A stretch of 39,804 nucleotides of DNA from Chiloscyllium plagiosum (Eukaryota), in NCBI RefSeq assembly GCF_004010195.1, contig NC_057753.1:9564932-9604735 (forward strand), in the 5' to 3' direction. The translations under genes and the position numbers were made by a program. Positions 292 to 39,804 of this stretch are shown in pieces. The notes under the pieces were generated by a model. The model made no database searches. It was not told where the DNA came from and saw only the letters and a program-made list of their open reading frames with translations. The number at the start of each line of letters is the position of its first letter. The first letter of the stretch is position 1.

Positions 292-1538
292 TAGAACACT
301 TGAAATTACAACAGGGTGGATTTGATCAGGCCTTCTTTTCATCTTTCAATTCAAAAAGTAGGCGAGTAGTTATTCTTATTCGGAAGAATCTCCCTTTCAA
401 AATCCTAAGTCAGATAAAAGATTAATCTGGACGGTACATATTGATTAAAGCCCTTATAAATGGAGAAGAATATGGGATTTTGAATCTGTATTGTCCCCCG
501 ATGCATCCTTTCAAATTTATAATGGAAGCTTTCTCCAAACTGATGGCTCTTGGGGCTCATTTTACAATTATAGGGGGAGGTTTTAAGCACATTATGGACC
601 CGGAGATAGACAGGATACCCAAGAATACTACGGGTGTATCCCCCAGATCCAGGCAATTGGTGGATTTGAATAAAGAGTTAGGATTAGTAGATGTGTGGAG
701 GTGCATCCACCTGCAAGCAGAGATTTCTCTTTTTATTCTAATCCATATAGGTGTCACACTAGAATTGATATGTTGTTTGCCCCCTCGACCTTTTTGAATT
801 CCATATTATCCTGCAAAATAGGTAATATAATAATTTCTGATCACATTGCAGTGACTATCGAAATCAAGACTAGGAACAATGAGATGGCCCCCCAACATTG
901 GCGTATGGATTCTTTCTTAATGAAGGATAGTAATTTGTAAAATATTTCTCTCAAGAATTCAAAACCGTTTTGGAAATTAATTCAGGTACGGCTAGTAACC
1001 CGTCGATGATGTGGGAGACCATTAAGGCTTATGCGCGGGGTCTGATCATTTCATACTTGGCGACCCAGAAAAAATAAAAGGGAGATTAACAGCGTCTACT
1101 TGAGACTCGCTGAAAGGCAGCTGAAACAGCGTATGTTGATAGGCCCTCTGTTGCTAAATTACAAAGGATTACAGCCCTTAGGACAGCCCTGAATACCGTG
1201 ATTACCCAAACGGCAAAGAGGGAAATATTATTTGCAAAGCAAAGATTATATGAATTTGGCGATGAGCCTGGTAGATATCTAACGTTTCTCGCAAGGCAAA
1301 AAAAGGCCCCACAAGCTATCACATCCATTAGGGAAAGTGCTGGTACTCTGACTCACGATCATAAAAGGATCAACACAATCTTCAGAAACGTTTACTCTGA
1401 TTTGTATAAATCGCAGGATTGTGAAGATAGAGCCAGGAAGATGCAGTCATGTTTTTTTAAAAGCCTGGTCTTTCCGGACCTAACCCCGGAACAGGTGTCA
1501 GTCCTGAATGCTCCCCTAACAACCCAGGAAATACTTGA

Positions 1539-1737
1539 GGAGAAAGTGAGGTCTGCAGATGCTGGAGATCAGAGTTGAAAATGTGTTGCTGGAAAAGCGC
1601 AGCAGGTCAGGCAGCATCGAGGGAACAGGAGAATCAACATTTCTTCCTGAAGAAGGGCTTATGCCCGAAACGTCGATTCTCCTGTTCCCTGGATGCTGCC
1701 TGACCTGCTGTGCTTTTCCAGCAACACATTTTCAGCT
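1539..1737. mobile_element. Short fold-back Penelope-derived non-autonomous element inserted in L1
   Basis: Inverted arms AAAATGTGTTGCTGGAAAAGCGCAGCAGGTCAGGCAGCATC / GATGCTGCCTGACCTGCTGTGCTTTTCCAGCAACACATTTT. TSD CAGGAAATACTTGA at 1525-1538 and 1738-1751. Confidence 0.85.
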
Positions 1738-3395
1738 CAGGAAATACTTGATGCAATCAGGCAGCTCCAGAGTGGTAAGGCACCTGGTCCAGATGGATTT
1801 CAGGTTATATGGATTAGAATAAAACAAAGAGTTTATAGGAGTATAAACTGGTCCACTTATGGACATGTACAACTATTCATATAGTCAGGGCTGCCTTCTG
1901 CCTTCGTTGAAAGAGACGAATATCTCCCTCATTCTCAAAAAAGGAAAGGACCCAGAAGATTTTGCATCATACAGACCAATATCCTTGCTAAATGTAGATT
2001 TTAAAATTCTTTCTTAAACATTAGCCAAAAGAGGACCAGACAGGGTTTATTGAGGGCTGTAGATCATCTAATAATATTAGAAGGGTTTTGAATGTGATCC
2101 AAGTCTGTCATCAGGAAAGAATACCGGGAATAGTAGTCTCGTTGGACGCAGAGAAGGCATTTGACAGGGTTGAATGGTCAAACCTGTTCTATACATTGGA
2201 AAGGTATTTGCTAAATGGGTCTCAACATTGTATAATGACCCCAAAGCAGTTGTGATCACCAATGGCTTAGGCTCGGATAGCTTCAATGTGGGTAAGGGCT
2301 GCCGTCAGGGATGTCCCCTCTCACCGTTGCTATTCACGCTAATAATTGAGCCACTAGTGGAAGCGATACGGGCGGACTCTAATATAATGGCCCCGAGGGT
2401 TGGCACGGGTAAACATAAAATTACCCTTTATGCAGGTGATGTTCTCCTTTTTCTTAGTAATCCTTTGATGTTTGTGCCCCGCCTGATCCAAGTTATTAAT
2501 TTATTTAATGCATTCTCAGGCTACAAAATTAATTTCTCAAAATCAGAGGCTATGCCGATGGGTGGCCTTGCTAGTATGTCCCACTTATTGGACGGATCTC
2601 ACTTTCCCTTTCAGTGGTCTCTGGGTTTTTTTTTATATTTAGGTATTTTTATCACCCCAGTATTTGGCCAGCTGTAAAAGGCCAATTTTGTGCATCTATT
2701 GGAAAGGATAAGGCAGGACCTTCATGCTGGGGAGACCTTCCAATTTCCTGACTAGGTAGAATAACTCTAATTAAAATGAATGTCTTGCCCCGTCTCTTAT
2801 ACCCTATGAGAATGCTCCCAATGATACTGCTGAGGCCAGCACTGCGCAAATTGTATGGTTGACTTGGTTCTTTCATCTAGAGTCATAGACGGCCCCTCAT
2901 TAAGTTAAGGAAGCTACAGCTTCCACAGGCAAGGGGAGGGCTGGATTTTCCAGACTTTAGGAAGTATCAGCTGAGTTCCCTTTTAAGCTACATAGCCGAT
3001 TGGGAGCGTCTGACCCACAATCAATCTGGCTGGACATCGAGGCTTCTCAAGTAAAGTGCCCTCTCATTTACCTCATCTTTAGATAAGATGAAAGTCATTA
3101 TGGACCATTGTAAAAACCCTGTAGTATTAAACACAATTAAAGCCTGGAAGATAATACAGCAAAACGAGGATAATTCACATAAAACCTCCCCTTATACTCC
3201 TATAATAGGGACATGAGGCTCACAGATGCCACATTTAAATCCTGGAGGTCCAGGGGTATCTCCTGTTTAGGGGATCTGTTTGATGAGGGGGTCTGCACCA
3301 GAACAGCTGCACCAGAAATTTGGACTACTTAATGGAGACCTCTTTTGATACTTCCAGATTCGAGATTACATACAGAAGACTACATTATTAGATAG

Positions 3396-3558
3396 GAGAA
3401 AGTGAGGTCTGCAGATGCTGGAGATCAGAGCTGAAAATGTGTTGCTGGAAAAGCGCAGCAGGTCAGGCAGCATCCAGGCAGCATGCCCGAAACGTCGATT
3501 CTCCTGTTCCCTGGATGCTGCCTGACCTGCTGCGCTTTTCCAGCAATACATTTTCAGC
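3396..3558. mobile_element. Second fold-back Penelope-derived element in L1
   Basis: Same inverted arms with a different junction. TSD ACTACATTATTAGATAG at 3379-3395 and 3559-3575. Confidence 0.85.
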
Positions 3559-4187
3559 ACTACATTATTAGATAGCCTTTATAAATCAGGTAGAGAACGT
3601 AGAGTGTTGTGGCCAATGGATTTACCCTCAATCAGCACTCTCTATCATTTATTACATAACTAAGTGTCAGAAGACATGGTACATTAGAACATGGGATCAG
3701 GAATTGGGGTTGGAAATATCCACAGAAATGTAGGATGACATCTGGGAAAATGCCAGAAAAATCTCCATCTGTAATAGAACCCAGGCCATTCAGTTAAAAA
3801 TACTCTATAGGACTCATATAGCACCAGGATGATTGGCAAAATTTAGGGCAGGAGCATCTCCAATTTGTCCCAAATGTAAAATAGAGGTGGGCACTCTCAC
3901 ACACTGCTTATGGACATGTCATAAGATCCGTAAATACTGGGTCAGAGTAGCAAATGCTTTGACAGAAATCTTGGGAACGGAAATTAGAGTAGATCCAGTG
4001 TTTTTTTCTTCTGGGCTTTTCGAGCTTGCCTTCCCTGGATGTGCACGGGATGAAATTATTTTCCATTCTCTCCTTTTGTGCAAGGAAAAATATCTTAGTA
4101 AACTCGGTAGCTGAGGACCCTCCAGGACTTCCGAATTGGCACAGGTTAATCATGGAATATATTCCCCTTGACTTCCTTACAAATATG

Positions 4188-4404
4188 GAAATGTGTTGCT
4201 GGAAAAGCACAGCAGGTCAGGCAGCATCCAGGGAACAGGAGAATCGACGTTTCGGGCATAAGCCCTTCTTCAGGAAGCCCTTCCTGAAGAAGGGCTTATG
4301 CCCGAAACGTCGATTCTCCTGTTCCCTGGATGCTGCCTGACCTGCTGCGCTTTTCCAGCAACACATTTCCAGCTCTGATCTCCAGCATCTTCAGACCTCA
4401 CTTT
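4188..4404. mobile_element. Third fold-back Penelope-derived element in L1 (opposite orientation)
   Basis: Same arms. TSD TTCCTTACAAATATG at 4173-4187 and 4405-4419. Confidence 0.85.
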
Positions 4405-5699
4405 TTCCTTACAAATATGTGCACTAAAAAACTGAATTATTCTATAAAATATAACAGCCCTTTCTGAATTACATAGATATAGATATTTCAGCCATTTTGT
4501 CAAGGGCTTTCATCTAGTTGGGGTAGCGGTTCTGGCTGGTCCGGGGCCCCTTGGGACAGGAATCCCACATGAATACGGGTTTTATTATGACTTGATGTTA
4601 ATTCGTTCTGAGCATGTACTTCACTATTTAATTACTATGTTATCCTTTTTTTCCCTTGAGTAACGTAAGATATTTTATTATACGCTCTGGTTAGTTATAA
4701 GTTAGATTAGTAGTTAGTTAAGTTTTGTCTTTTTCTTTTCTTTGACAGGTTTTGGTTATTATTTATTTAATTGTATATTAGTGTTTTTTTTATTTTGGAA
4801 GTTTGTAAAAATGTTAAATTTTCAATAAAAATATGTATTTTAAAAAACATTGACATTCCACTAACATTTATAAAAAATATTTAATGTAGTTAACGATGTG
4901 ATACTGATACGATAATTTATTTTTGTGATTTTGATTGAGGAATAAATATTGGTCTGGACACCCAGAAAAAAAAGATTTTTCATGTTCTGTACAAATCTTC
5001 TGGGATGCCCAGTAATCTCCCCATACAAGCTGTTATTTTCATCAAATAATGTGACAGTTATTGACTTCCATCAACCTCTTCTGTCCTGGGAAATTTCCTT
5101 TCTCTGCAAAGTTTGGTTCACATTGGCAAGTTCAATCCTCCTCCATTTCTCCGGAACACACTTTATAATGTGTAACATTCTCAGTGTCCGCGTAACGTTC
5201 AGTGGGGAAAATATTTTCAGTCTCGCAGTTATACACAATTCCTCAGAAATGTTTTTGATAAATGCACTGCTCCCATGAAAGCTGGTGGTTCCACAGTTAA
5301 AATGCTTTCAACAGCCCTTTTTCTTATTTACGCACCTTCCCAGGATACAGGATTTCTCCCACCAGAAACTGTTTGCCCTGAAAAAAAATCCAGCAGGAAG
5401 ATCATTATGCAGCTATCAGTAAAAATGTCTCATTTGGTTCACCAATGATAGAAATGTAAGAACCTGTTTGCTTGGCTGCTCTTTGCTGTTTCCCCTGTAA
5501 CTGTTCAAAATGTTTAGTTTTATACCCCAAAATGTCAGATCATTTCATTGGTTTGGTGTCATTCCAAACAGTAAAATTAAAATTCAATAGGATTTTGGTA
5601 TCAGTGGCATAATTTAAACTGATTGGTCCAATTGGAATTTGTTTTTGTTCCATGGCAATGCAACTCCAGCTATTTGTTTCAACCAAATGTTACATCTTA

Positions 5700-6789: not shown

Positions 6790-7075
6790 AGTCAAGAGTC
6801 AACCACACTGCTATGTGTCTGGGGTCACGTGTAGGCCAGATCAGATAAAGGATGCAGCTGGGACAACTGAGTGGCAGTTCCCGCAATGGCAGTTTCCCTC
6901 CCTAAAGTGAATCAGACAGGGATTTTGGATTTTGCCCTGAAAATGGTTTCATCGTTAGACTCTGAACTCCAGATTTCTGACTGAGTTCCAATTCCGCCAT
7001 TTGCCATGAAGGGATTCAAACCTGGGAGTCCCCGGAACTGGGATGATAGTCCAGTTGATAATGGCACTCGGCCAT
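6790..7075 (-). mobile_element. Old tRNA-derived SINE in the 3' UTR of the left ZNF pseudogene
   Basis: B-box-like GGTTTGAATCCC. Body colinear with 38148-38450 (AGAAATCTG.AGTTCAGA.TCTAAC, TTTAGGGA.GGAAACTGCCATTG). Confidence 0.55.
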
Positions 7076-7082
7076 CGTTCCT

Positions 7083-7551
7083 TCAATCCCCCTGCGATGG
7101 CACATGATCTCGCCAGTGTGGCAGATCATGTGCCATCGCAGGTAGGAGGAGTTGGTGAAGCCGGAGGAGCTGGTGAAGCCCTTCCCGCACTGACAACAGG
7201 TGAGCAGGTTGTCTCCAGTGTGGACCCACTGGTGGGTCAGCAGCCCAGAAGAATCGATGAACCCCTTCCCACCCTCTGAGCAGGTGAATGGCCTCTCTCC
7301 GTGTGGACCCGCTCGTGCGTCTGCAGGTTGCCCATCCGACTGAATCCCTGCCTGCACATGGATCAGGTGAATGGCCTCTCCCCTGTGTGAACTCACTGGT
7401 GTGCCAGCAGATTGCACAGCCAACTGTATCCCTTCCCACAGTCGGTGTAGGAGAATGGCCTCTCCCTAGTGCAAACGCGTCTGTGAGTTTCTAGCATCGA
7501 GGGGGAAAGGAACCCTTTCCCACAATCCTCACATTTCCATGGTTTCCCCAT
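7083..7551 (-). pseudogene. C2H2 (Kruppel-type) zinc-finger pseudogene, about 5 fingers
   Basis: [29 protein letters not shown]-type linkers, ends HVPSQGD*. In-frame stop at 7393-7395, frameshifts and lost Cys/His ligands. Confidence 0.9.
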
Positions 7552-9232: not shown

Positions 9233-10735
9233 GTGGATTACTCAACATACACAAATCAGGAGTCCCCCTCAGACCCATAGTCTCACTACCTGGGACACCA
9301 TTGTACAGACTAGCCAAGGAACTCCACCGAATAGTAAAACACTGAGTAGAAGATTCATACCACTCCATTCACTCCACCCAAGAATTCCTGAACACCAAAG
9401 ACCCCAAGATAGAAGAGGATGGCCTGCATTGACGTAACAGCCATGTACACATCCATTAACATTAACCTGGCCAAAGAAACACTGAATACATTACTAGAAG
9501 AACCAAAGGCACAAATACCAAACAGCGCCAACTTACTTCATCAGCAAAAATAACACTGTCAAGCTATTGGACATGTGCCTTACCACTCATTTCACATTCA
9601 ATAACAAGCCCTACAAACAAATCAATGGAACACCCATGAAACCACCAGTATCAGGGTTCCTAGCAGAAGCAGTAATGCAGAGACTCAAACAAACAGCCCT
9701 CCCAACTATCCAACCCAAACTTTGAGTCGGCTGCGTGGATGACACCCTTTGTCATCACAAAATGAAACAAATTAGAAGAAACATACAATACCATCAACAA
9801 TATCCTTACTGGCAGAAAATACACAAAAGAGAACAACAAACATTTCTAGATGTCACAGTAGAGCGAACAGTCAATGGGGAACTTCGAACCAGTGTCAACA
9901 GGAAAACAACCGACACGAACCAAATACAGGAGCAATCATCTCAACACCCACAAACGAAGCTGCATCAGGACATTATTTCAACAAGCCATCATACACTGCA
10001 GCACAGAGAAACTACGAACAGTAGAAGAGAAATACCTACACAACATATTCGAGAAGAAGAACAAGTACACAATCAACCCAGTCCACTCATTTCTCAACAA
10101 CAAACCCAAACAACCAAACACGACGTGCCCAGAAACCCTGGCCACATTACCTATCAAAGGCATCTCTGAAATGACTTCCAGATTACTCCAACCTCTTGGC
10201 ATCATGGTAGCCCACAAACCTACTAACGCACTTAACAGTGGCGAATGAACCTAAAAGAAACCATACAAACAACCACCAAAACGAATATCATTTATGAAAT
10301 ATCATGCAAGGAACATAACAAAGATTACATCAGTAAAACAGGCAGAAAACTAGCCACCAGGATACTTGAACATCAACTCGCCACAAAAAAACATGACCAA
10401 CTATCACTAGTATCCTTACATACAGTTGAAGGAGGATACTACTTTGACTGGGACATGACACCAATCCTAGGACAAACCAAACACACACGAGGATTGCTCA
10501 AAGCATGACATTCCAATCAGAACTCCATCAATACATATATTGATCATGGACCCCATCTACCATCCTCTGAGAAAAAGAATCGGAAATGATATCACCCTAA
10601 GAAGCCAAAACACACGAAAGCATGCAGGACATAACACCAGCGCTTCACCAGAGGCTCACTGATGATGTTACCCAGTAAGGGTACGAAATATCTGAAAATG
10701 AACCTTCCAGCTGAGCGAGCAAACTTATATCCTGA
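9233..10735 (+). mobile_element. Penelope-like element (RT + GIY-YIG endonuclease), degenerate, 5'-truncated
   Basis: IHKSGVPLRPIVSLPGTP, YKQINGTPM, (Y)VDDT, FLDVTV, HKPTN, NIIYEISCKEHNKDYISKTGRKLATRILEH (GIY-YIG). Multiple frameshifts. Confidence 0.9.
10653..10704 (+). ncRNA. Minimal type-I hammerhead ribozyme motif at Penelope 3' end
   Basis: TCA-CTGATGA-T-GTTACCC-AGTAA-GGGTAC-GAAA-T-ATC-TGA: core CUGAUGA (10659-10665), stem II, GAAA (10685-10688), NUH=AUC, stem I UCA/UGA. Hammerheads are established in Penelope-like element termini. Activity untested. Confidence 0.65.
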
Positions 10736-10799
10736 ATGAGAAAATTCCAGTTGACACAAAGGCTGCCACGAGTTTGGAATTCTCTCCCGGAAATTAGGT

Positions 10800-11400
10800 A
10801 ATGGTGCCCTCACCAAGATGGCCGCCCCCGCTCCAAGACAACATGCGCCTTATCCTCACAAAAGATGGCGGCCGTTTGCCCGGGCAACCCGAAGGGGCCT
10901 TCCTCAGTGAAGTAGACACTGGGCCTGTGGGGCTTTTATTCGGGGCCTCCCCCTCGGAGTTTATAAACTCCCCAGTCTCCCTCCTCCCGCGGTTCCCAAT
11001 CCTACCCTGTCTCACTGTCTCCTCTCCCCGGGGGCAGGAGCCAGGTCTTGGCGCTCGGGGCCTGGCGACCTCCCCGGGATGTTCCTGAAACCTGGTCCTG
11101 TTCTGAAGGAGGATCCCCGGACCCGAAACACCTCCTCACATTCCTCCCGACACGAGCTGCCGGACCTGCTCAGCTTTTCCAGCGGCTCCTGTTCTTGTTC
11201 CTTAAGCCACCGGCGCCATTCCTCTCCCACACTCAGCAACACTGCCTTTGTCCCGCTAGAGGACCTACACTGCACATGCGCCAACACACAGGGCGGGGTC
11301 CCGGTGTATGACGTCAGACGACCAAAGGGGCGTTTGGAGGAGTCCTCCAAACAATCGGAGACGCCGGGGGCGGGGCTATCGTTTTACCAGCCACCAGAAA
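10800..11400 (-). promoter_or_regulatory. GC/CpG-rich promoter-like island
   Basis: YY1-like AAGATGGCCGCC (10815-10826) and AAGATGGCGGC (10862-10872), NRF1-like TGCACATGCGC (11271-11281), GC boxes 11291-11298 and 11367-11376, CRE TGACGTCA 11309-11316. Strand inferred from motif order. Confidence 0.55.
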
Positions 11401-13105: not shown

Positions 13106-13415
13106 TGGGCGGCACGTTGGCACAGTGGTTAGCACTGCTGCCTCACAGCGCCGGAGACCCGGGTTCAATTCCCACCTCAGGCGACTGACTGTGTGGAGTT
13201 TGCACGTTCTCCCCGTGTCTGCGTGGGTTTCCTCCGGGTGCTCCGGTTTCCTCCCACAGTCCAAAGATGTGCAGGTCAGGTGAATTGGCCATGCTAAATT
13301 GCCCGTAGGTAAGGGGTAAATGTAGCGGTATAGGTGAGTTGCGCTTCGGCGGGTCGGTGTGGACTTGTTGGGCCGAAGGGCCTGTTTCCACACTGTAATC
13401 TAATCTAATCTAATC
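13106..13415 (+). mobile_element. HE1-type V-SINE, full length
   Basis: tRNA head with A box TGGCACAGTGG and B box GGTTCAATTCC, central CTGTGTGGAGTTTGCACGTTCTCCCCGTGTCTGCGTGGGTTTCCTCCGGGTGCTCCGGTTTCCTCCCAC, CR1-like tail and (AATCT)n end. Confidence 0.92.
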
Positions 13416-16835: not shown

Positions 16836-17139
16836 AGATTAGATTATTCTAGATTAGATTACATTACAAATATTCAAATATTCTAGATTAGATTACATTA
16901 CAGCGCCCATACATTTACCCCTTTTAACGTAACACTACGGGCAATTTTAGCATGGCCAATTCACCTAACCCACACATCTTTGTGACTGTGGGAGGAAACC
17001 GGAGCACCCGGAGGAAACCCACGCAGACACGGGGAGAACGTGCAAACTCCACACAGTCAGTCGCCTGAGTCGGGAATTGAAACCGGGTCTCTGGCGCTGT
17101 GAGGCAGCAGTGCTAACCACTGTGCCACCGTGCCGCCCA
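16836..17139 (-). mobile_element. HE1-type SINE (internal deletion, expanded tail)
   Basis: Reverse complement matches 13106-13415. (AGATT)n tail is repeated. Confidence 0.9.
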
Positions 17140-18749: not shown

Positions 18750-18821
18750 TTCCCTGACTGGGAGTCGAACCCGGACCGCGGTGGTGAAAGCAGCAGATCC
18801 TAATCATTACACCACCAGGGA
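18750..18821 (-). tRNA. tRNA-Glu(TTC), degenerate, probable pseudogene
   Basis: TCCCTGGTGGTGTAATGATTAGGATCTGCTGCTTTCACCACCGCGGTCCGGGTTCGACTCCCAGTCAGGGAA. Acceptor stem intact, C-C mismatch in anticodon stem, D-loop GG lost. Confidence 0.85.
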
Positions 18822-20402: not shown

Positions 20403-20675
20403 AGGAGAAAGTGAGGGCTGCAGATGCTGGAGATCAGAGCTGAAAATGTATTGCTGGAAAAGCGCAGCAGGTCAGGCAGCATCCAAGGAACAGGAGAATC
20501 GACGTTTCAGGCATAAGCCCTTCTTCAGGAATGAGGAAAGTGTGTCCAGCAGGCTAAGATAAAAGGTAGGGAGGAGGGACTTGGGGGAGGGGCGTTGGAA
20601 ATGCGATAGGTGGAAGACAGGCCGCCTACTTGCGGAATGTTTCAGAGAACACCTCTGGGACACCCGGACCAACCA
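20403..20675. mobile_element. Penelope-derived element, running into gap
   Basis: Same arm as 1539 ff., joined to a GIY-YIG coding piece KTGRLLAECFREHLWDTRTN. Confidence 0.85.
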
Positions 20676-22199: not shown

Positions 22200-22273
22200 C
22201 GTCCGTGGGTGGCTTCGAACCACCAACCGTTCGGTTAACTGCCGAACGCGCTGACCAATTACACCACAGAGAC
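22200..22273 (-). tRNA. tRNA-Asn(GTT), degenerate, probable pseudogene
   Basis: GTCTCTGTGGTGTAATTGGTCAGCGCGTTCGGCAGTTAACCGAACGGTTGGTGGTTCGAAGCCACCCACGGACG. Invariant U33 changed to A, one acceptor mismatch. Confidence 0.88.
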
Positions 22274-24061: not shown

Positions 24062-24374
24062 ATTATAAACTGTGAACAACAAAGTTGTTGAGCACAACAC
24101 TTACATTCAAAGACCGAAAACATCCGGTCCTGATTAATCAGATTGCATTGTGGTGCTTTTCTGCAAAACATCCACTTGAAATGTCCTACAAAAGAGTGAC
24201 AAAACCCATCCCTGTCAATTATAAACTGTGAACAACAAAGTTCTGGAGCACAACACTTACATTCAAAGACCGAAAACATCCAGGTCCTGATTAATCAGAT
24301 TGCATTGTGGTGCTTTTCTGCAAAACATCCACTTGCAATGTCCTACAAAAGAGTGACAAAACTCATCCCTGTCA
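24062..24374 (+). repeat. Tandem duplication of 156/157 bp
   Basis: ATTATAAACTGTGAACAACAAAGTT...CATCCCTGTCA at 24062-24217 and 24218-24374 with few differences. Confidence 0.95.
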
Positions 24375-27455: not shown

Positions 27456-28822
27456 TGTGATAGTCCCACCAGCACTCCAATTTGCTGTGCTTCCAGTCAG
27501 TAGATGCAGCTCACTATCCCATACTGATACACGGGCCACGATGACCCAGCTGTGGTGACAAGCTTGTGAAGGGCTGAGTGCTCTTCTCCTGTTTTCTGTC
27601 GGCCTGCTATGATCCGATTCATCAAACCTCTCTTCTCCGAGATAGGAATAAACTGGTGAAGGTGAAACACATCAATTACGGTGTGTTCCATGTGCAGGAG
27701 GTCCTACAGTAATTCCCCACGCTGTTTCACACAGCAGCATCCTCTCGGTGAATTACGCTTGGCAAAAAGTGGCTTGAACCTAATAAATATCCCCCATTGG
27801 ATTGGACTGACAGTTTATAAACTTCAGGCTAACCGCTAACGTGGAGAGGGGCCGTCAGACTGTGGTTTCCGCTCCTGCTGTTGAATAAATATCACTTTAA
27901 CTGTGTTCAGTGAGAGGAAAGGATTTGCTGTTGGTGGGAAACATTTCTATCTGAACTCGCTGTCACTCTGCTATAACAGGAGGAGCTGGGACCTCCGGAT
28001 ATAGTGAAACATAAAGCTGGGAATTTCTAGATTATGTTGTAAAAAATATCGGTGTAATGTTATTCACACCGCGCTATAACCAAGCGGCTGCGTTTAAATC
28101 CCGTGATGAACAGTTTGTGTTTTATTTCTCACATTGGGGGAGCTGCCCAAAACAATGGGCACACCACCTCCCTGACACAGTGTTCACAAATCAAACTGAC
28201 AGCACAGCTTCACGTGTGATCGAAAGTTTCCGTAAAGACTTGACTCAACAAATAAGTTGAAACTTTATTGCTGGAACAGCACAACAGGTCAGGCAGCATC
28301 CAGGGAACAGGAGATTCGACGTTTCGGGCACAGGCCCTTCTTCAGGTTCCTGAAGAACTTCTATTTATGGTTAAGGGAAGTGATCGCACTGCAATGATAT
28401 TATGTTCTTCGTAACAAAGGAGATCAACAGTTCATGTCTGTTCTGTCTCTCGAAACAATTTCCAACTCTCTCTCAATAAAAATCTGAAAGAACTGCGGAT
28501 GTTGTATATCAGAAACAAAAAACAGGAGTTGCCGGTGACCCTTCCACAGAACTGATGGTGATTGGGAAAATGTCGGTTTATATGCAGGAGATATTGTGGG
28601 AGGAAGGCGGAGATCAGGACAGAGCCCAAAGTGAAGGAAGAACTGTTGGACAGAAAAAGGAGTAGATAACCATCTGCGTTTGAGGGTGAATAACTGTTCA
28701 TGGAAACTGTTCGGAGCTAACAATAGATTAGATTAGATTACTTACAGTGTGGAAACAAGCCCTTCGGCCCAACAAGTCCACACCGACCCGCCGAAGCGCA
28801 ACCCACCCATTCCCCGACATTT

Positions 28823-28862
28823 AGGTTCCTGAAGAAGGGCCTGTGCCCGAAACGTCGAATCT
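28823..28862 (+). ncRNA. Minimal hammerhead ribozyme motif (best copy of fold-back family)
   Basis: AGGTTC-CTGAAGA-A-GGGC-CTGT-GCCC-GAAA-C-GTC-GAATCT: 6-bp stem I, CUGANGA, 4-bp stem II, GAAA, GUC triplet. Confidence 0.6.
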
Positions 28863-29023
28863 CCTGTTCCCTGGATGCTGCCTGACGACACAGTGTTCAC
28901 AAATCAAACTGACAGCACAGCTTCACGTGTGATCGAAAGTTTCCGTAAAGAAGACTTGACTCAACAAATAACCCGAGTGAACGTACTCCTTTCATGATTT
29001 GAAATGCAAGAAGTTGACGTCAG

Positions 29024-29095
29024 TGAGCCTGATGTGATTTGAACACACAACCTTCTAAACTGGAGTCAGACGCGCTACCGTTGCGCCACAAGCTC
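29024..29095 (-). tRNA. tRNA-Trp(CCA), diverged but cloverleaf fully pairable
   Basis: GAGCTTGTGGCGCAACGGTAGCGCGTCTGACTCCAGTTTAGAAGGTTGTGTGTTCAAATCACATCAGGCTCA. A and B boxes intact. Confidence 0.9.
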
Positions 29096-29475
29096 ACAGA
29101 AAGCTATTCACTTCTATTTATGGTTAAGGGAAGTGATCGCACTGCAATGATATTATGCTCTTCGTAACAAAGGAGATCAACAGTTCATGTCTGTTCTGTC
29201 TCTCGAAACAATTTCCAACTCTCTCTCAATAAAAATCTGAAAGACCTGCGGATGCTGTATATCAGAAACAAAAAACAGGAGTTGCCGGTGACCCTTCCAC
29301 AGAACTGATGGTGATTGGGAAAATGTCGGTTTATATGCAGGAGATATTGTGGGAGGAAGGCGGAGATCAGGACAGAGCCCAAAGCGAAGAAAGAACTGTT
29401 GGACAGAAAAAGGAGTAGATAACCATCTGCGTTTGAGGGTGAATAACTGTTAATGGAAACTGTTCGGAGCTAACA

Positions 29476-29694
29476 ATAGATTAGGTTAGATTACTTACAG
29501 TGTGGAAACAAGCCCTTCGGCCCAACAAGTCCACACCGACCCGCCGAACCGCAACCCACCCATTCCCCGACATTTACCCCTAACCTAACACTACGGGAAA
29601 TTTAGCATGGCCAATTCACCTGACCTGCACATCTTTGGACTGTGGGAGGAAACCGGAGCACCCGGAGGAAACCCACGCAGACACAGGGAGAATG
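29476..29694 (-). mobile_element. HE1-type SINE, 5'-truncated
   Basis: Reverse complement matches the 3' two-thirds of 13106-13415. Confidence 0.88.
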
Positions 29695-29988
29695 TGGGGT
29701 GGGGAGGGAAATATATCCCTGGCGGTGGGGTCCTCCAAACAGACCCCACCACCAGGGATATATTTTCTTCCCCACCCCTTTCCGCCTTCCGCAAAGACCG
29801 TTCCCTCCGTGACTACCTGGTCAGGTCCACGCCCCCCTCTCCTCCCTGACCTATCACCTTCATCCCCTCCCCCACTCACCCATTGTACTCTATGCTACTT
29901 TCTCCCCACCCTCACCCTCCTCCACCTTATCTCTCCACGCTCCAGACTCACTGCCTTTATTCCTGATGAAGGGCTCTTGCCCGAAACC
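29695..29988 (+). mobile_element. Penelope fragment with small fold-back and truncated hammerhead core
   Basis: LQTDPTTRDIFSSPPLSAFRKDRSLRDYLVRS (PLE linker region). About 37-bp inverted repeat at 29696-29779. CTGATGAAGGGCTCTTGCCCGAAAC at 29963-29987. Confidence 0.75.
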
Positions 29989-30858
29989 TAGGTTGTGGGA
30001 AGTCAAAGGATTCTGGGTAATCCAAGATGGAGGACGGGAAAAATTTCTGACTGTCAGAGCTGCTCCTTTTTTGAGGTATTTTAGGTGTTGGAGGTAATTT
30101 CCTCCAATTCCAGGAGCAGCAATTACTGTTATATATGCTGTTGCATTGTTTTGGAACTTTGGGAAAAAAAGTCAAAACAGCAGCAGTTTTAAAAGGGAGA
30201 AGAGCGGACATAGGAAGCACATAGTGAGGACTGTGCAGGAGAGAGAGAGAACGAATCTTCACAGTTACTGCCTTTGCTGTTTTAGAATTAATGTGTCGCT
30301 GGACATCGGAGTGCATCTGGGAAAATTAACAAACAGTGAATTTCACAACTAATCTTGGAGGATTCGGTTTGGGCGAAGTTCACAGCACAGAATCAGATAA
30401 GTTAATTGTTGTTTTAAGTCTGTCCAAGAGAAAGGCTGTATTAGTGAGTACAGTGGGTTCTTTCTTGATTATATGTGTTTGGAGATAAGTCTCTTGATTA
30501 AACTTAAAATATAAGCCATAGCTCTTAATTTAACCTGGGGCCGGGTTTTGTAGAGGAATAAGACGGTGTTATTTTCTGGGTTTGTAGATTGTGAAAGAGC
30601 AAAAATGGCCTTTGCAATGATATGTACTTCTTGTCAAATGTGGGAGTTCAAAGAGTGTTTAAGGGTTACTGTGGATTATATCTGCTATAAATGCTGTTGG
30701 ATGTGAATCTTATCAGATCGAGTGGATCGGTTAGAGAGACAGATGGAAGTGATGAGGAATTTGCAACAGCAACAGTATGAGATGGATAGCAATTATAGGA
30801 AGGTGGGAAACTCTCAAATAAAGTCACATAGATGGGTTAACTCCAGGAAGTCTAAGTG

Positions 30859-31168
30859 TGGGCAGCACGGTGGCACACTGCTGCCTCACAGCACCAGAGA
30901 CCCGGGTTCAATTCCCGCCTGAGGCGACGGTGTGGAGTTTGCACATTCTCCCCGTGTCTGCGTGGGTTTCCTCTGGGTGCTCTGGTTTCCTCCCACAATT
31001 CAAAGATGTGCAGGTCAGGTGAATTGGTAATGCTAAATTGCCCATAGTGTTAGGTGAAGGGGTAAATATAGGGGAATGGGTCTAGGTGGGTTGTGCTTTG
31101 GCAGGTCAGTGTGGACTTCTTGGGCTGAAGGGCCTGTTTCCACACTGTAAGTAATTTAATCTAATCTA
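30859..31168 (+). mobile_element. HE1-type SINE inserted in CR1 ORF1
   Basis: Colinear with 13106-13415, ends (AATCT)n. Confidence 0.9.
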
Positions 31169-36909: not shown

Positions 36910-37030
36910 CAGATAAAGGGTTTATGCCCAAAACATCGACTCTCCTGCTCCTCAGATGCTGCCTGACCTGCTGTGCTTTTCCAGTCCTGCAAGTTTTGAC
37001 TCTGACTGTACAGCGTCTGCAATCCTCATT
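36910..37030 (+). mobile_element. Older Penelope-derived tail fragment
   Basis: GCCCAAAACATCGACTCTCCTGCTCCTCAGATGCTGCCTGACCTGCTGTGCTTTTCCAG. Confidence 0.75.
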
Positions 37031-37275
37031 TTGACGTCAATATCTGACAGTGACTCAATCCAGCGGGACCCCTGCAATTTTCAACTATGATTTTTAGAAG
37101 GAGAAAAGCTTTTTGGTTCCTGTTTGAATATGTTTTCAGTATCTGTGGGACTGCATGAGAGACCCTATTGTTGCAGCGCACTGAGTGTGGAGCCTGAAAC
37201 AGTTATACAACCTGGAAAGAGAAATTCACCCCGGAGAGGGCCTCTACATGTGTGTGTGCGGCTGAAGCTTTGGCC

Positions 37276-38141
37276 ATGGAGAAACCTGAGGATCCCACCC
37301 TGTGGAGTCGCGACTGGAAGTGTGGCGACTGCGGGAAAGACTTCCATGTTTCATCTGTCCTGGAGACTCATCGATGCAGTCACACCAGAGAGAGGCCATT
37401 TCCTGCCTCGAGTGCGGATAGGCTTTCAGCAATTCCTCCAAAATGCTAAAGCGCCAGTGGGTCCACGCCAGGTGGACCTAGTGCCTTTCAGTTGCCTAGT
37501 GTGCAGGAAGGCCTTTACCCAGGCCTCTGCTCTGCTAATCCACCAACGGCTCCACACAGGGGAGAAGCCCTTCAGCTACCCCAAGTGCGGGAAGGCCTTC
37601 AGCAATCCTTCTGACCTCCAGGCCCACCATTGGGTCCACATGGGGGACAGGCCATTCCCCTGCAGAGCACGGGAAGGCCTTCAGCCGTTCCTCCACTCTG
37701 CTGAGGCACCAGTGGGTCCACACGGAAGAGAGGCTCTTCAACTGCCCAGAGTTCAGGAAGAGCTTCATCCAGGCTTCCACCCTGCTGACGCACCGGCCCT
37801 TCAGCTGTCCCGAGTGCAGGAAGGGATTCATTCAGGTGGGCAACTTGCGGATGCACCAGCAGGTCCACACCAGAGAGAGGCCCTTCAGCTGCCCCAAGTG
37901 TGGAAAAGGCTTTACCTGTTCCTTCCATCTGCTGACCCACTGGCGGGTCCATACGGGGGAGCGGCCCTTCAGCAGCCCCAAGTGCGGGAAGGCCTTCACC
38001 CAGGCCTCCACCCTGCTGACCCACCAATGGGTCCACACTGGGGAGAGGCCATTCACCTGCTCTCGGTGCGGGAAGGCCTTTACCTGCTCCTTCCACTTAC
38101 AGAGACACCAGCAGGTTCATGTGCCATCGCAGGGGGATTGA
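37276..38141 (+). pseudogene. C2H2 zinc-finger pseudogene, about 10 fingers
   Basis: [22 protein letters not shown] and HTGERPFT linkers; ends HVPSQGD*. At least three frame breaks or deletions and lost Cys (SYPKC, SSPKC). Confidence 0.92.
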
Positions 38142-38147
38142 AGAAGC

Positions 38148-39049: not shown

Positions 39050-39642
39050 CTGAAAATGTGTTGCTGGAAAAGCGCAGCAGGTCAGGCAGCATCCAGGGAA
39101 CAGGAGAATCGACGTTTTGGGCATAAGCCCTTCTTCAGGAATGAGGAAAGTTTGTCCAGCAGGCTAAGATAAAAGGTAGGGAGGAGGGACTTGGGGGAGG
39201 GGCGTCGGAAATGTGATAGGTGGAAAGAGGTCAAGGTGAGGGTGATAGGTCAGACGGGAGTGGGGGCGGAGAGGTCGGGAAGAAGATTGCAGGTTAGGAA
39301 GGCGGTGCTGAATTCGATGGATTTGACTGAGACAAGGTGGGGGGAGGGGAAATACCTTGTCTCAGTCAAATCCATCGAACTCAGCACCGCCTTCCTAACC
39401 TGCAATCTTCTTCCCCACCTCTCTGCCCCCACCCCAGTCTGGCCTATCACCCTCACCTTGACCTCTTTCCACCGATCACATTTCCGACGCCCCTCCCCCA
39501 AGTCCCTCCTCCCTACCTTTTATCTTAGCCTGCTGGACAAACTGTCCTCATTCCTGAAGAAGGGCTAATACCCAAAACGTCGATTCTCCTGTTCCCTGGA
39601 TGCTGCCTGACCTGCTGCGCTTTTCCAGCAACACATTTCCAG
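39050..39642. mobile_element. Long fold-back Penelope-derived element, 289-bp inverted arms with 15-nt spacer
   Basis: 39050-39338 is the reverse complement of 39354-39642 with about 11 mismatches. Same family as 1539 and 20403. Confidence 0.92.
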
Positions 39643-39804
39643 CAATAATACATAGACAAAGAAAAGGCAAAGTGGAACTAATGTACAGTTTAGGAGAGAC
39701 TAACAAAAATAAAATCTTGGTATGGAAGAAAATATCTCGTGATTAATCATTGGAACATGAAGGCAAGACATTGTGAAGAAAAATAATGGATCTTCAACCA
39801 GGAC

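What the first reader, a model, noticed from the sequence alone, without database searches (positions are those of the whole stretch)
28823..28862. Minimal hammerhead ribozyme with extra core A in a high-copy fold-back element family
Seen: CUGANGA-A-GGGC-N4-GCCC-GAAAC-GUC at 1647-1674, 4284-4311, 4246-4273(-), 28829-28856 and, truncated, 29963-29987. The stem GGGC/GCCC is constant while the loop varies (TTAT, CTGT, TCTT) and N7 varies (A/T), a structure-like conservation pattern. Helix III is only the palindrome ACGU. Established: Penelope-like elements carry minimal type-I hammerheads thought to act as dimers, and an extra A between A9 and G10.1 is tolerated in the CChMVd viroid hammerhead. 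Inference: a retrozyme-like non-autonomous family spreads ribozyme cores through this genome.
Basis: partly seen in the sequence, partly recalled or inferred. Interest (0 to 1): 0.72.

Follow-up and report, generated by a model that had tools for sequence, protein, structure and literature searches.

The report
Penelope retrotransposon hammerhead in shark DNA
The motif is real but of a known kind: it is the tiny hammerhead (predicted self-cutting RNA) motif that Penelope-type jumping genes carry in their end repeats, its 'extra A' is the published norm for that class, and the short mirror-image copies here are likely DNA copies of the uncut front end of the element's RNA rather than a separate mobile family.

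Summary
The motif is present at all five stated places; 6 complete cores occur in the window against 0.025 expected. It fits the published minimal hammerhead of Penelope-like elements (PLEs). The nucleotide between A9 and G10.1, the G10.1-C11.1 pair and the palindromic 15.2-16.2 are defining traits of that class (PMC4209133), so the extra A is not unusual. The carrier is the pseudo-LTR of a Neptune-type PLE in shark-like DNA: family copies abut endonuclease and linker coding pieces. The insertions show known PLE anatomy: inverted head-to-head arms, a one-sided ~35-nt tail and 14-17 bp target duplications. The retrozyme reading fails: no tandem array, and each of the fold-back junctions differs. 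Across related genomes the core decays at CpG sites, the catalytic G12 included, so most copies are probably inert. One useful residue: copy 5' ends pile up 1-4 nt before C3 at an initiator-like site, and none starts at the cut site, which suggests copying from uncut RNA. The scan noted this system many times before, in this genome and at least 24 genomes. Cleavage was not testable.

The parts
28829..28856 (+). Minimal hammerhead core: C3-A9 28829-28835, extra A 28836, stem II 28837-28840 with 28845-28848, loop CTGT, GAAA 28849-28852, palindromic C15.2-G16.2, U16.1, C17 at 28856 (predicted cut after it)
   Evidence: consensus in PMC4209133 Fig. S3
28823..28862 (+). Core plus 6-bp helix I (28823-28828 with 28857-28862); the outer 5' bases come from the junction
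28820..28886 (+). Forward pLTR arm of the insertion; starts 3 nt before C3 and is cut short at +57
28255..28357 (-). Inverted pLTR arm of the same insertion, with core at 28318-28345; ends at +90 without the tail; followed by the start of the forward arm
28357..28823 (+). 467-nt copy (98.3%, 8 differences) of local DNA 29110-29576, lying between the two arms
28174..28255 (+). Left copy of the 82-85 nt flank duplication; the right copy is 28887-28971
28887..28971 (+). Right copy of the flank duplication
1537..1738 (.). Fold-back insertion: minus arm +20 to +126 (with tail), plus arm -3 to +91 with core 1647-1674; 14-bp target duplication
3394..3561 (.). Fold-back insertion: arms +43 to +125 and +14 to +92, no complete core; 17-bp target duplication
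4186..4409 (.). Fold-back insertion: both arms start at -3, cores 4246-4273(-) and 4284-4311(+), tail on the plus arm only; 15-bp target duplication
20403..20615 (-). Longer pLTR copy with tail, core 20501-20528 (C11.1 is T), an initiator-like CTCATTC around -4 and a TTTTAT about 30 nt upstream
20614..20673 (+). GIY-YIG endonuclease coding piece joined head-to-head to that pLTR; runs into an assembly gap
   Evidence: tblastn with P0001, 80% over 20 aa, E 4.5e-4
29696..29987 (+). Sister-subfamily piece: short fold-back 29696-29778, RT-EN linker coding piece 29733-29825, 3' UTR, and truncated core 29963-29987
   Evidence: 90% over 31 aa to P0001, E 4.7e-12
39050..39643 (.). Fold-back insertion with 289-nt arms; both cores (39111-39138 minus, 39554-39581 plus) carry G12A
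36910..37032 (+). Older, decayed pLTR copy of a related subfamily

Best explanation
The motif is the minimal type-I hammerhead in the pseudo-LTR of a Penelope-like retrotransposon, likely of the Neptune clade, in shark-like DNA, and the short mirror-image copies are likely dead-end insertions that the element's own protein made from uncut RNA. Shown: the motif, its place in a repeat joined to PLE coding pieces, head-to-head arms, two preferred 3' ends about 35 nt apart, target duplications, and a pile-up of 5' ends just before C3. Inferred: RNA starts at the pLTR initiator about 4 nt before C3. The PLE protein nicks the target and primes reverse transcription at one of two internal sites (+87-92 or +120-126). 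It copies straight through the uncut hammerhead and often runs off the RNA's 5' end. Two such cDNAs join head-to-head. On the master RNA the hammerhead would cut after GUC only as a dimer (ACGU pairing with ACGU) or with the PLE protein as chaperone, as shown in vitro for an anole PLE. The genomic stubs, the 28829 copy included, likely do not cut: they decay at CpG sites and would be sequestered by their inverted partner.
For: Core matches the published consensus, and the Acropora Neptune and Nematostella(2) rows of Fig. S3 are near-identical in layout. The window peptide at 29733-29825 is 87-90% identical to Chiloscyllium punctatum proteins P0001/P0002. These have RVT_1 and GIY-YIG hits and a C-x4-C-x2-C linker, the Neptune-type motif (PMC8557442). 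The endonuclease piece 20614-20673 abuts an inverted pLTR. Of 14 blast hits to the pLTR, 6 end at +87 to +92 and 4 at +120 to +126. The tail is on one arm only in 3 of 3 short fold-backs, which have 14, 17 and 15 bp target duplications. This is the anatomy described in PMC8557442 and PMC3846280. 5 of 14 hits start at -3 to -1 and 0 of 14 at +28. In three runs of related animals depth falls about four-fold across helix I, and loose ends peak at -3/-4. In 121 metagenome loci with the same core, 18 have a P0001-like endonuclease end 29-226 nt upstream on the same strand. Pairs the search did not require hold in 27, 27, 23 and 23 of 32 families (shuffle means 11.6-14.1), with several pair types. 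Anole PLE: cleavage needs the protein and is not needed for insertion (PMC11167929).
Against: No cleavage, RNA 5' end or transposition was measured. No full-length element with this exact pLTR was seen: no genome is held, and the ORF link rests on two short pieces, one of 20 aa at E 4.5e-4. Pfam hits of P0001 lie below the curated cut-offs, and no tree was built. The double-hammerhead dimer is not the lowest-energy fold in any of 9 copies (28829: -21.9 against -27.1 kcal/mol). Helix I of the main subfamily is only 2 bp plus 1. The depth step at -3/-4 can also come from sister subfamilies that share only ATTC upstream. A cap-derived extra G at -4 is seen in at most 1 of 4 junctions and is ambiguous there. 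Earlier scan notes report copies or U6 fusions starting at the cut site (not tested here), so some RNA may be cut.
Confidence: 0.85

Rival explanations
1. A retrozyme-like, non-autonomous family: short units carrying the ribozyme are transcribed, cut, circularised and re-inserted as a unit by PLE proteins.
For: Very many short non-coding copies (73,335 contigs laid on 177 nt in run X1). Animal retrozymes are proposed to derive from PLE pLTRs and were reported in one chondrichthyan genome (bioRxiv 10.64898/2026.07.22.740005). Many copies share a 5' start near -3.
Against: No hammerhead-bearing tandem array among the 11 TRF rows. Partners are head-to-head, not head-to-tail. Copies contain the intact cut site, and none of 14 starts at it. 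Junctions differ between insertions. Published retrozymes carry canonical hammerheads in tandem (PMC7229834). Only 39.8 kb was examined, so arrays elsewhere in the genome are not excluded.
Confidence: 0.06
2. Same PLE identity, but the short copies are ordinary random 5' truncations, and the pile-up at -3/-4 comes from microhomology or snap-back at the self-complementary TTC-CT-GAA start and from sister-family divergence, not from an RNA start.
For: The 4277-4283 junction carries a templated GCCCTTC with TTC microhomology. Other arms start at +6, +14, +20, +43, -64, -87 and -200. Self-priming at palindromes was proposed for rotifer PLEs (PMC3846280). In the metagenome loci the two opposed C3 positions are 25-449 nt apart.
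Against: Three independent insertions have an arm starting at -3. The site coincides with an initiator-like CTCATTC, with a TTAT motif about 30 nt upstream in two subfamilies.
Confidence: 0.3
3. The motif is a vestige or a protein-binding fold at the pLTR promoter and does not cleave at all in this family.
For: Weak helix I and unfavourable dimer energies. G12A in both arms of one insertion. G12 decays like other CpGs. No RNA end pile-up in run X21. PMC4209133 reports low in vitro activity and does not rule out other functions. 8 of 9 Xenopus dimers did not cleave.
Against: Core, NUH and helix I pairing are kept across very distant families. Within the shark family the non-CpG differences inside the core fall only on N7 and loop II. 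The anole PLE hammerhead cuts with protein help.
Confidence: 0.2

Closest known systems
Minimal hammerheads (min-HHR) in pLTRs of metazoan PLEs (Cervera and De la Pena 2014, PMC4209133; read: parts 1-2 of 4 of the text and parts 1-2 of 3 of the supplementary PDF)
   Same: Core, extra nucleotide after A9, G10.1-C11.1, palindromic 15.2-16.2 without loop 3, NUH, short helix I, dispersed single copies and opposite-strand pairs.
   Different: No shark is among the rows of Fig. S3 that I read. Stem II is 4 bp (as in the Acropora and Nematostella rows, shorter than in Schistosoma). Helix I of the main subfamily is interrupted by U.U.
EN+ PLE insertions with inverted 5'-truncated pLTR, tail and target duplication (PMC8557442, PMC3846280; passages read)
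   Same: Head-to-head arms, 30-40 nt tail on one side, short target duplication, capture of host DNA between pLTRs, TATA/Inr-like motifs in the pLTR.
   Different: Here most insertions consist of the pLTR end alone (165-225 nt), and many arms start 3 nt before C3.
Anolis Poseidon element PAc (Frangieh et al. 2024, PMC11167929; passages and second half of the main text read)
   Same: Two internal priming sites giving the tail; insertion from unprocessed RNA; hammerhead upstream of the priming sites.
   Different: Different clade; protein-assisted cleavage was shown there and is untested here.
Animal non-LTR retrozymes (PMC7229834, passages; bioRxiv 10.64898/2026.07.22.740005, parts 1-3 of 5)
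   Same: Type-I hammerhead in a short non-coding repeat related to PLE pLTRs.
   Different: Retrozymes are head-to-tail arrays with a ribozyme in each unit and give circular RNA; no such array is in this window.
CChMVd plus-strand hammerhead with extra A10 (PMC3705267, passages)
   Same: One A between A9 and G10.1.
   Different: A viroid ribozyme with full helices; an analogy only.

Membership tests
PLE minimal hammerhead | Core CUGANGA and GAAA with NUH at the cut site | tested here: met
   6 complete copies, GUC triplet
PLE minimal hammerhead | [quoted passage not shown] | tested here: met
   A in all 7 descriptor hits; listed as conserved in PMC4209133
PLE minimal hammerhead | G10.1-C11.1 pair closing stem II | tested here: met
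   8 of 9 copies G-C, 1 G-U
PLE minimal hammerhead | Palindromic 15.2-16.2, no loop 3 | tested here: met
   C-G in 8 of 9 copies; the ninth is truncated there
PLE minimal hammerhead | Short helix I | tested here: met
   C2.1-G1.1 in 9 of 9 and U2.2-A1.2 or U-G in 8 of 9; contiguous length 1-6 bp, mostly 2
PLE minimal hammerhead | Located in a pLTR downstream of a PLE ORF | tested here: met
   Linker piece, then UTR, then core at 29733-29987; endonuclease piece joined at 20614
PLE minimal hammerhead | Self-cleavage as dimer or with protein help | not testable with these tools
   Folding only; the dimer is not the minimum-energy fold
EN+ PLE, Neptune clade | Single ORF with RT and C-terminal GIY-YIG endonuclease | tested here: inconclusive
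   Only fragments in the window; the matching proteins P0001/P0002 have both domains, GIY-YIG just under the cut-off
EN+ PLE, Neptune clade | Zn-finger-like CX2-5CxxC linker between RT and EN | tested here: inconclusive
   Present in P0001 (residues 317-325), not in the window fragments themselves
EN+ PLE, Neptune clade | Inverted 5'-truncated copy adjacent head-to-head | tested here: met
   Five fold-back insertions plus 20403-20673
EN+ PLE, Neptune clade | 30-40 bp tail on one end | tested here: met
   3' ends at +87-92 (6 of 14) or +120-126 (4 of 14); one-sided in 3 of 3 short fold-backs
EN+ PLE, Neptune clade | Target-site duplication | tested here: met
   14, 17 and 15 bp in 3 of 6 insertions examined; none clear in 2; an 82-85 nt duplication in the sixth
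EN+ PLE, Neptune clade | RT phylogeny within Neptune | not tested
   No tree built
Animal non-LTR retrozyme | Head-to-tail tandem units, each with a hammerhead | tested here: not met
   No such array in the window; rest of genome not available
Animal non-LTR retrozyme | Canonical type-I hammerhead (6-bp helix I with loop contacts, capped helix III) | tested here: not met
   Minimal form without loop 3; definition. The 2026 preprint also admits minimal motifs
Animal non-LTR retrozyme | Expression as circular RNA | not testable with these tools
   PolyA reads only
Fold-back (MITE-like) element moving as a unit | Shared fixed structure and centre across copies | tested here: not met
   Arm starts +20/-3, +43/+14, -3/-3, -1/-3 and -200/-200 differ between insertions

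The most novel reading that the evidence does not exclude
The shark genome is a natural mass record of PLE reverse transcription. The transcription start lies inside the 5' strand of helix I, so the hammerhead is the first structure of the mRNA. Most short insertions are run-off cDNAs of that uncut 5' leader, primed at two internal sites from both cut target ends and joined head-to-head. RNA with a dead ribozyme (G12A in both arms at 39050-39643) still inserts, so cleavage is dispensable for insertion in vivo and would serve to regulate the RNA. The 467-nt host segment between the arms at 28357-28823 would be a template jump by the same enzyme onto DNA next to the target.
Probability: 0.4. Interest if true: 0.5.

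Novelty: new member of a known kind. Interest (0 to 1): 0.2.

Why it matters
As a ribozyme it adds little: the class, the extra nucleotide and the opposite-strand pairs were described in 2014. I found no paper on this motif in sharks, so it extends a known class to a new, very high-copy family. The open question is what PLE hammerheads do in vivo and how the inverted arms form. The copy ends here bear on that: two priming sites, starts just before C3 and none at the cut. With a whole genome and capped-RNA data this could be tested at scale. The scan has already raised the same point from many other windows.

Tried and rejected
Rfam scan at E up to 10: no hammerhead model matched; only a tRNA passed its threshold, and the miRNA-family hits are hairpin artefacts of the fold-backs. 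No whole genome is held, so copy number, full-length elements and genome-wide junction counts could not be obtained. Their shuffle control ignores relatedness; collapsing to 32 or 22 families kept the helix I 2.1-1.1 and 2.2-1.2 signal (0 of 5000 shuffles), while at 22 families the third pair and stem II pair 4 were reached by 23 and 19 of 5000; 8 of 127 matches without full flanks were left out of that count. No RNA holder was listed for the stretch. Raw RNA run X21 (about 2 in 100 read) showed no place where many molecules begin or end; this library type may not show 5'-OH ends, so it is no evidence on cleavage. Run X22 gave no reads. No listed contig spans the 28823/28826 junction, so the 467-nt capture could not be confirmed or shown to be an assembly artefact. 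Matching the C-terminal end of P0001 to the 3' UTR gave only noise. Within-family conservation as a test of selection was inconclusive: no non-CpG core position reaches 6%, but long flank stretches do not either. A sequence look-up in earlier findings returned nothing. Rejected: a novel core variant, a MITE-like unit and chance.

Full report
Observation. A descriptor for the minimal hammerhead finds 6 complete copies (1647+, 4284+, 4246-, 20501-, 28318-, 28829+) and the truncated 29963 copy. The mean in 200 Markov simulations is 0.025. Two more copies at 39.1 and 39.6 kb carry G12A, and older relatives lie at 36910 and 11103. Rfam has no model that matches it.

The extra A. [quoted passage not shown] Their consensus is CUGANGAH G...C GAAAN...NUH. 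Their Acropora (Neptune) and Nematostella rows have the same 4-bp stem II and CGUC layout as this motif. They also describe dispersed single copies and opposite-strand pairs. The CChMVd analogy is correct (PMC3705267, passages) but unnecessary. No shark is among the Fig. S3 rows I read. Three searches gave no paper on the motif in sharks. A 2026 preprint (parts 1-3 of 5 read) includes one chondrichthyan genome; its supplements are closed and may list this family.

The carrier. The frame at 29733-29825 is 87-90% identical to two Chiloscyllium punctatum proteins. These have reverse-transcriptase and GIY-YIG hits (only P0002's RT passes the curated cut-off) and a C-x4-C-x2-C linker, the mark of Neptune-type PLEs (PMC8557442, passages). 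In the window this piece runs into a pyrimidine-rich UTR and the 29963 core; the endonuclease part is missing. At 20614-20673 an endonuclease piece (80% over 20 aa) is joined head-to-head to the pLTR copy 20403-20615. The 28829 copy is 92-95% identical to that main subfamily. An unrelated decayed PLE at about 9400-10740 has its own hammerhead of the same design at 10659-10692, with a different extra base, stem II and helix I.

Anatomy of the insertions. Relative to C3, 14 blast hits end at +87 to +92 (6), at +120 to +126 (4), or elsewhere (4, one of them the reference itself). The three short fold-backs at 1537, 3394 and 4186 have the ~35-nt tail on one arm only, and target duplications of 14, 17 and 15 bp. 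This is the arrangement described for endonuclease-bearing PLEs, and the two ends match the two internal priming sites found for the anole element (PMC11167929). Arm starts differ between insertions, so each fold-back was made at insertion and did not spread as a unit. No tandem array holds the motif. The retrozyme definition (PMC7229834, passages) is therefore not met in this window.

The 28829 locus. It is the forward arm (-3 to +57) of an insertion whose inverted arm is 28255-28346. Between them lies a 467-nt copy of 29110-29576 (8 differences), and the whole is flanked by an 82-85 nt duplication. Short microhomologies at the joints suggest template jumps, either by the element's RT or during repair of the palindrome. 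No listed contig in related runs spans the joint, so an assembly artefact is not excluded. Its 6-bp helix I is partly a product of the junction. In a short transcript stem II has probability 0.66 and helix I 0.44; in a transcript that includes the inverted arm both are 0.0. The double-hammerhead dimer is not the lowest-energy fold in any of 9 copies; these energies ignore tertiary contacts and proteins.

Conservation. Contigs of related animals were laid on two stretches. Tens of thousands align (73,335 in X1), so the family is high-copy; depths are not copy numbers. On 20436-20612, the differences listed at 6% or more (in at least one run) inside the 28-nt core are at two loop II positions and at the core's CpG sites: C11.1 (where the reference itself carries the transition), G12 (6-9%), C15.2 and G16.2 (9-14%), and C17 (5-7%); G1.1 just outside shows 4-7%. 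On 28380-28960 the listed differences in the motif are N7, two loop bases and N1.3; 37 rows were not shown. So subfamily changes avoid the catalytic positions, while individual copies decay neutrally. This is consistent with selection on master elements but is not significant on its own. Across families the signal is clear. In 121 metagenome loci found with a pattern that fixed only the core and three stem pairs, position 17 is C or U in 30 of 32 families. Pairs 2.1-1.1, 2.2-1.2, 2.3-1.3 and stem II pair 4 hold in 27, 27, 23 and 23 of 32 (shuffle means 13.6, 14.1, 11.6, 12.5), with several pair types. 18 of 121 loci have a P0001-like endonuclease end 29-226 nt upstream, and L003 holds a 595-aa RT-EN frame. 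These loci are not shark DNA, and the families are related, so this supports the class rather than this family.

Mechanism. Five of 14 hits start at -3 to -1, in three independent insertions, and none at +28, where a cut RNA would begin. In three runs depth falls about four-fold across helix I, with loose ends at -3/-4 among the best supported. The site is an initiator-like CTCATTC with TTAT about 30 nt upstream in two subfamilies (the Inr and TATA consensus are recalled). I saw the pile-up before consulting earlier notes; the reading as run-off copies of capped RNA comes from those notes, and I could test it only in part. Sister-family divergence and microhomology remain as alternatives. Both arms at 39050-39643 share G12A though they differ at 11 of 289 positions. 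That fits a template with a dead ribozyme, as allowed by the anole data, but arm homogenisation or two independent CpG hits could also explain it. Other notes report copies or U6 fusions starting at the cut site; I did not test these.

Verdict. A new member of a known kind. The identity is secure; catalytic activity is untested and probably absent from most genomic copies. The retrozyme inference is not supported. The scan has recorded this system before: 246 findings in at least 24 genomes, many in this one. Interest 0.2.

Noticed in passing
window 9400-10740 (+): Decayed PLE of another family (RT, thumb and GIY-YIG pieces; no CxxC linker seen, so likely Poseidon-type) with its own minimal hammerhead at 10659-10692: extra base U, longer stem II, 3-bp helix I, and both bases of the helix III CpG changed.
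   Followed up: partly
window 28174-29576: 467-nt copy of local DNA between the two arms of a PLE insertion, with an 82-85 nt flank duplication; template jumps or an assembly artefact.
   Followed up: partly
window 39050-39643: 289-nt fold-back whose two arms share the G12A change but differ at 11 other positions; neither arm has the tail and no target duplication is clear.
   Followed up: partly
window 11095-11200 (+): Old pLTR-like piece with a hammerhead-like core (stem II ends GGAT/ACCC) inside a GC-rich, promoter-like stretch 10800-11400 upstream of zinc-finger remnants; possible exaptation, untested.
   Followed up: no
window 18750-18821, 22200-22273, 29023-29095 (all -): tRNA-Glu(TTC), tRNA-Asn(GTT) and tRNA-Trp(CCA) genes or pseudogenes; the Trp gene lies between the duplicated segments next to the finding.
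   Followed up: no
window 426-4200 (+): Decayed LINE-type ORF2 (type recalled as L1/Tx1-like, not from a call) that received three PLE fold-back insertions, each with a clear target duplication.
   Followed up: partly
window 7016-7490 (-) and 37359-38144 (+): C2H2 zinc-finger repeat remnants with an 84-nt period.
   Followed up: no
window 28724-28823, 13106-13415, 16984-17139, 29479-29696, 30852-31168: High-copy shark SINE pieces (name HE1 recalled, not from a call). In RNA run X21 several hundred reads carry poly(T) just before the GATTA repeat at 28724, so this SINE family gives polyadenylated RNA on the minus strand.
   Followed up: no
window 24062-24374: 157-bp tandem duplication, 96% identical.
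   Followed up: no
L037 1616-1643 (-): The only GC-rich locus (64%) among the 121; it holds the core pattern without helix I pairing, so it is a chance match or an unrelated motif.
   Followed up: no
L002/L003 (one contig), L011, L015, L093, L110: Non-shark loci show the same layout: an opposed hammerhead pair 25-112 nt apart, or an inverted copy in front of a full RT-EN frame followed by a forward hammerhead.
   Followed up: partly
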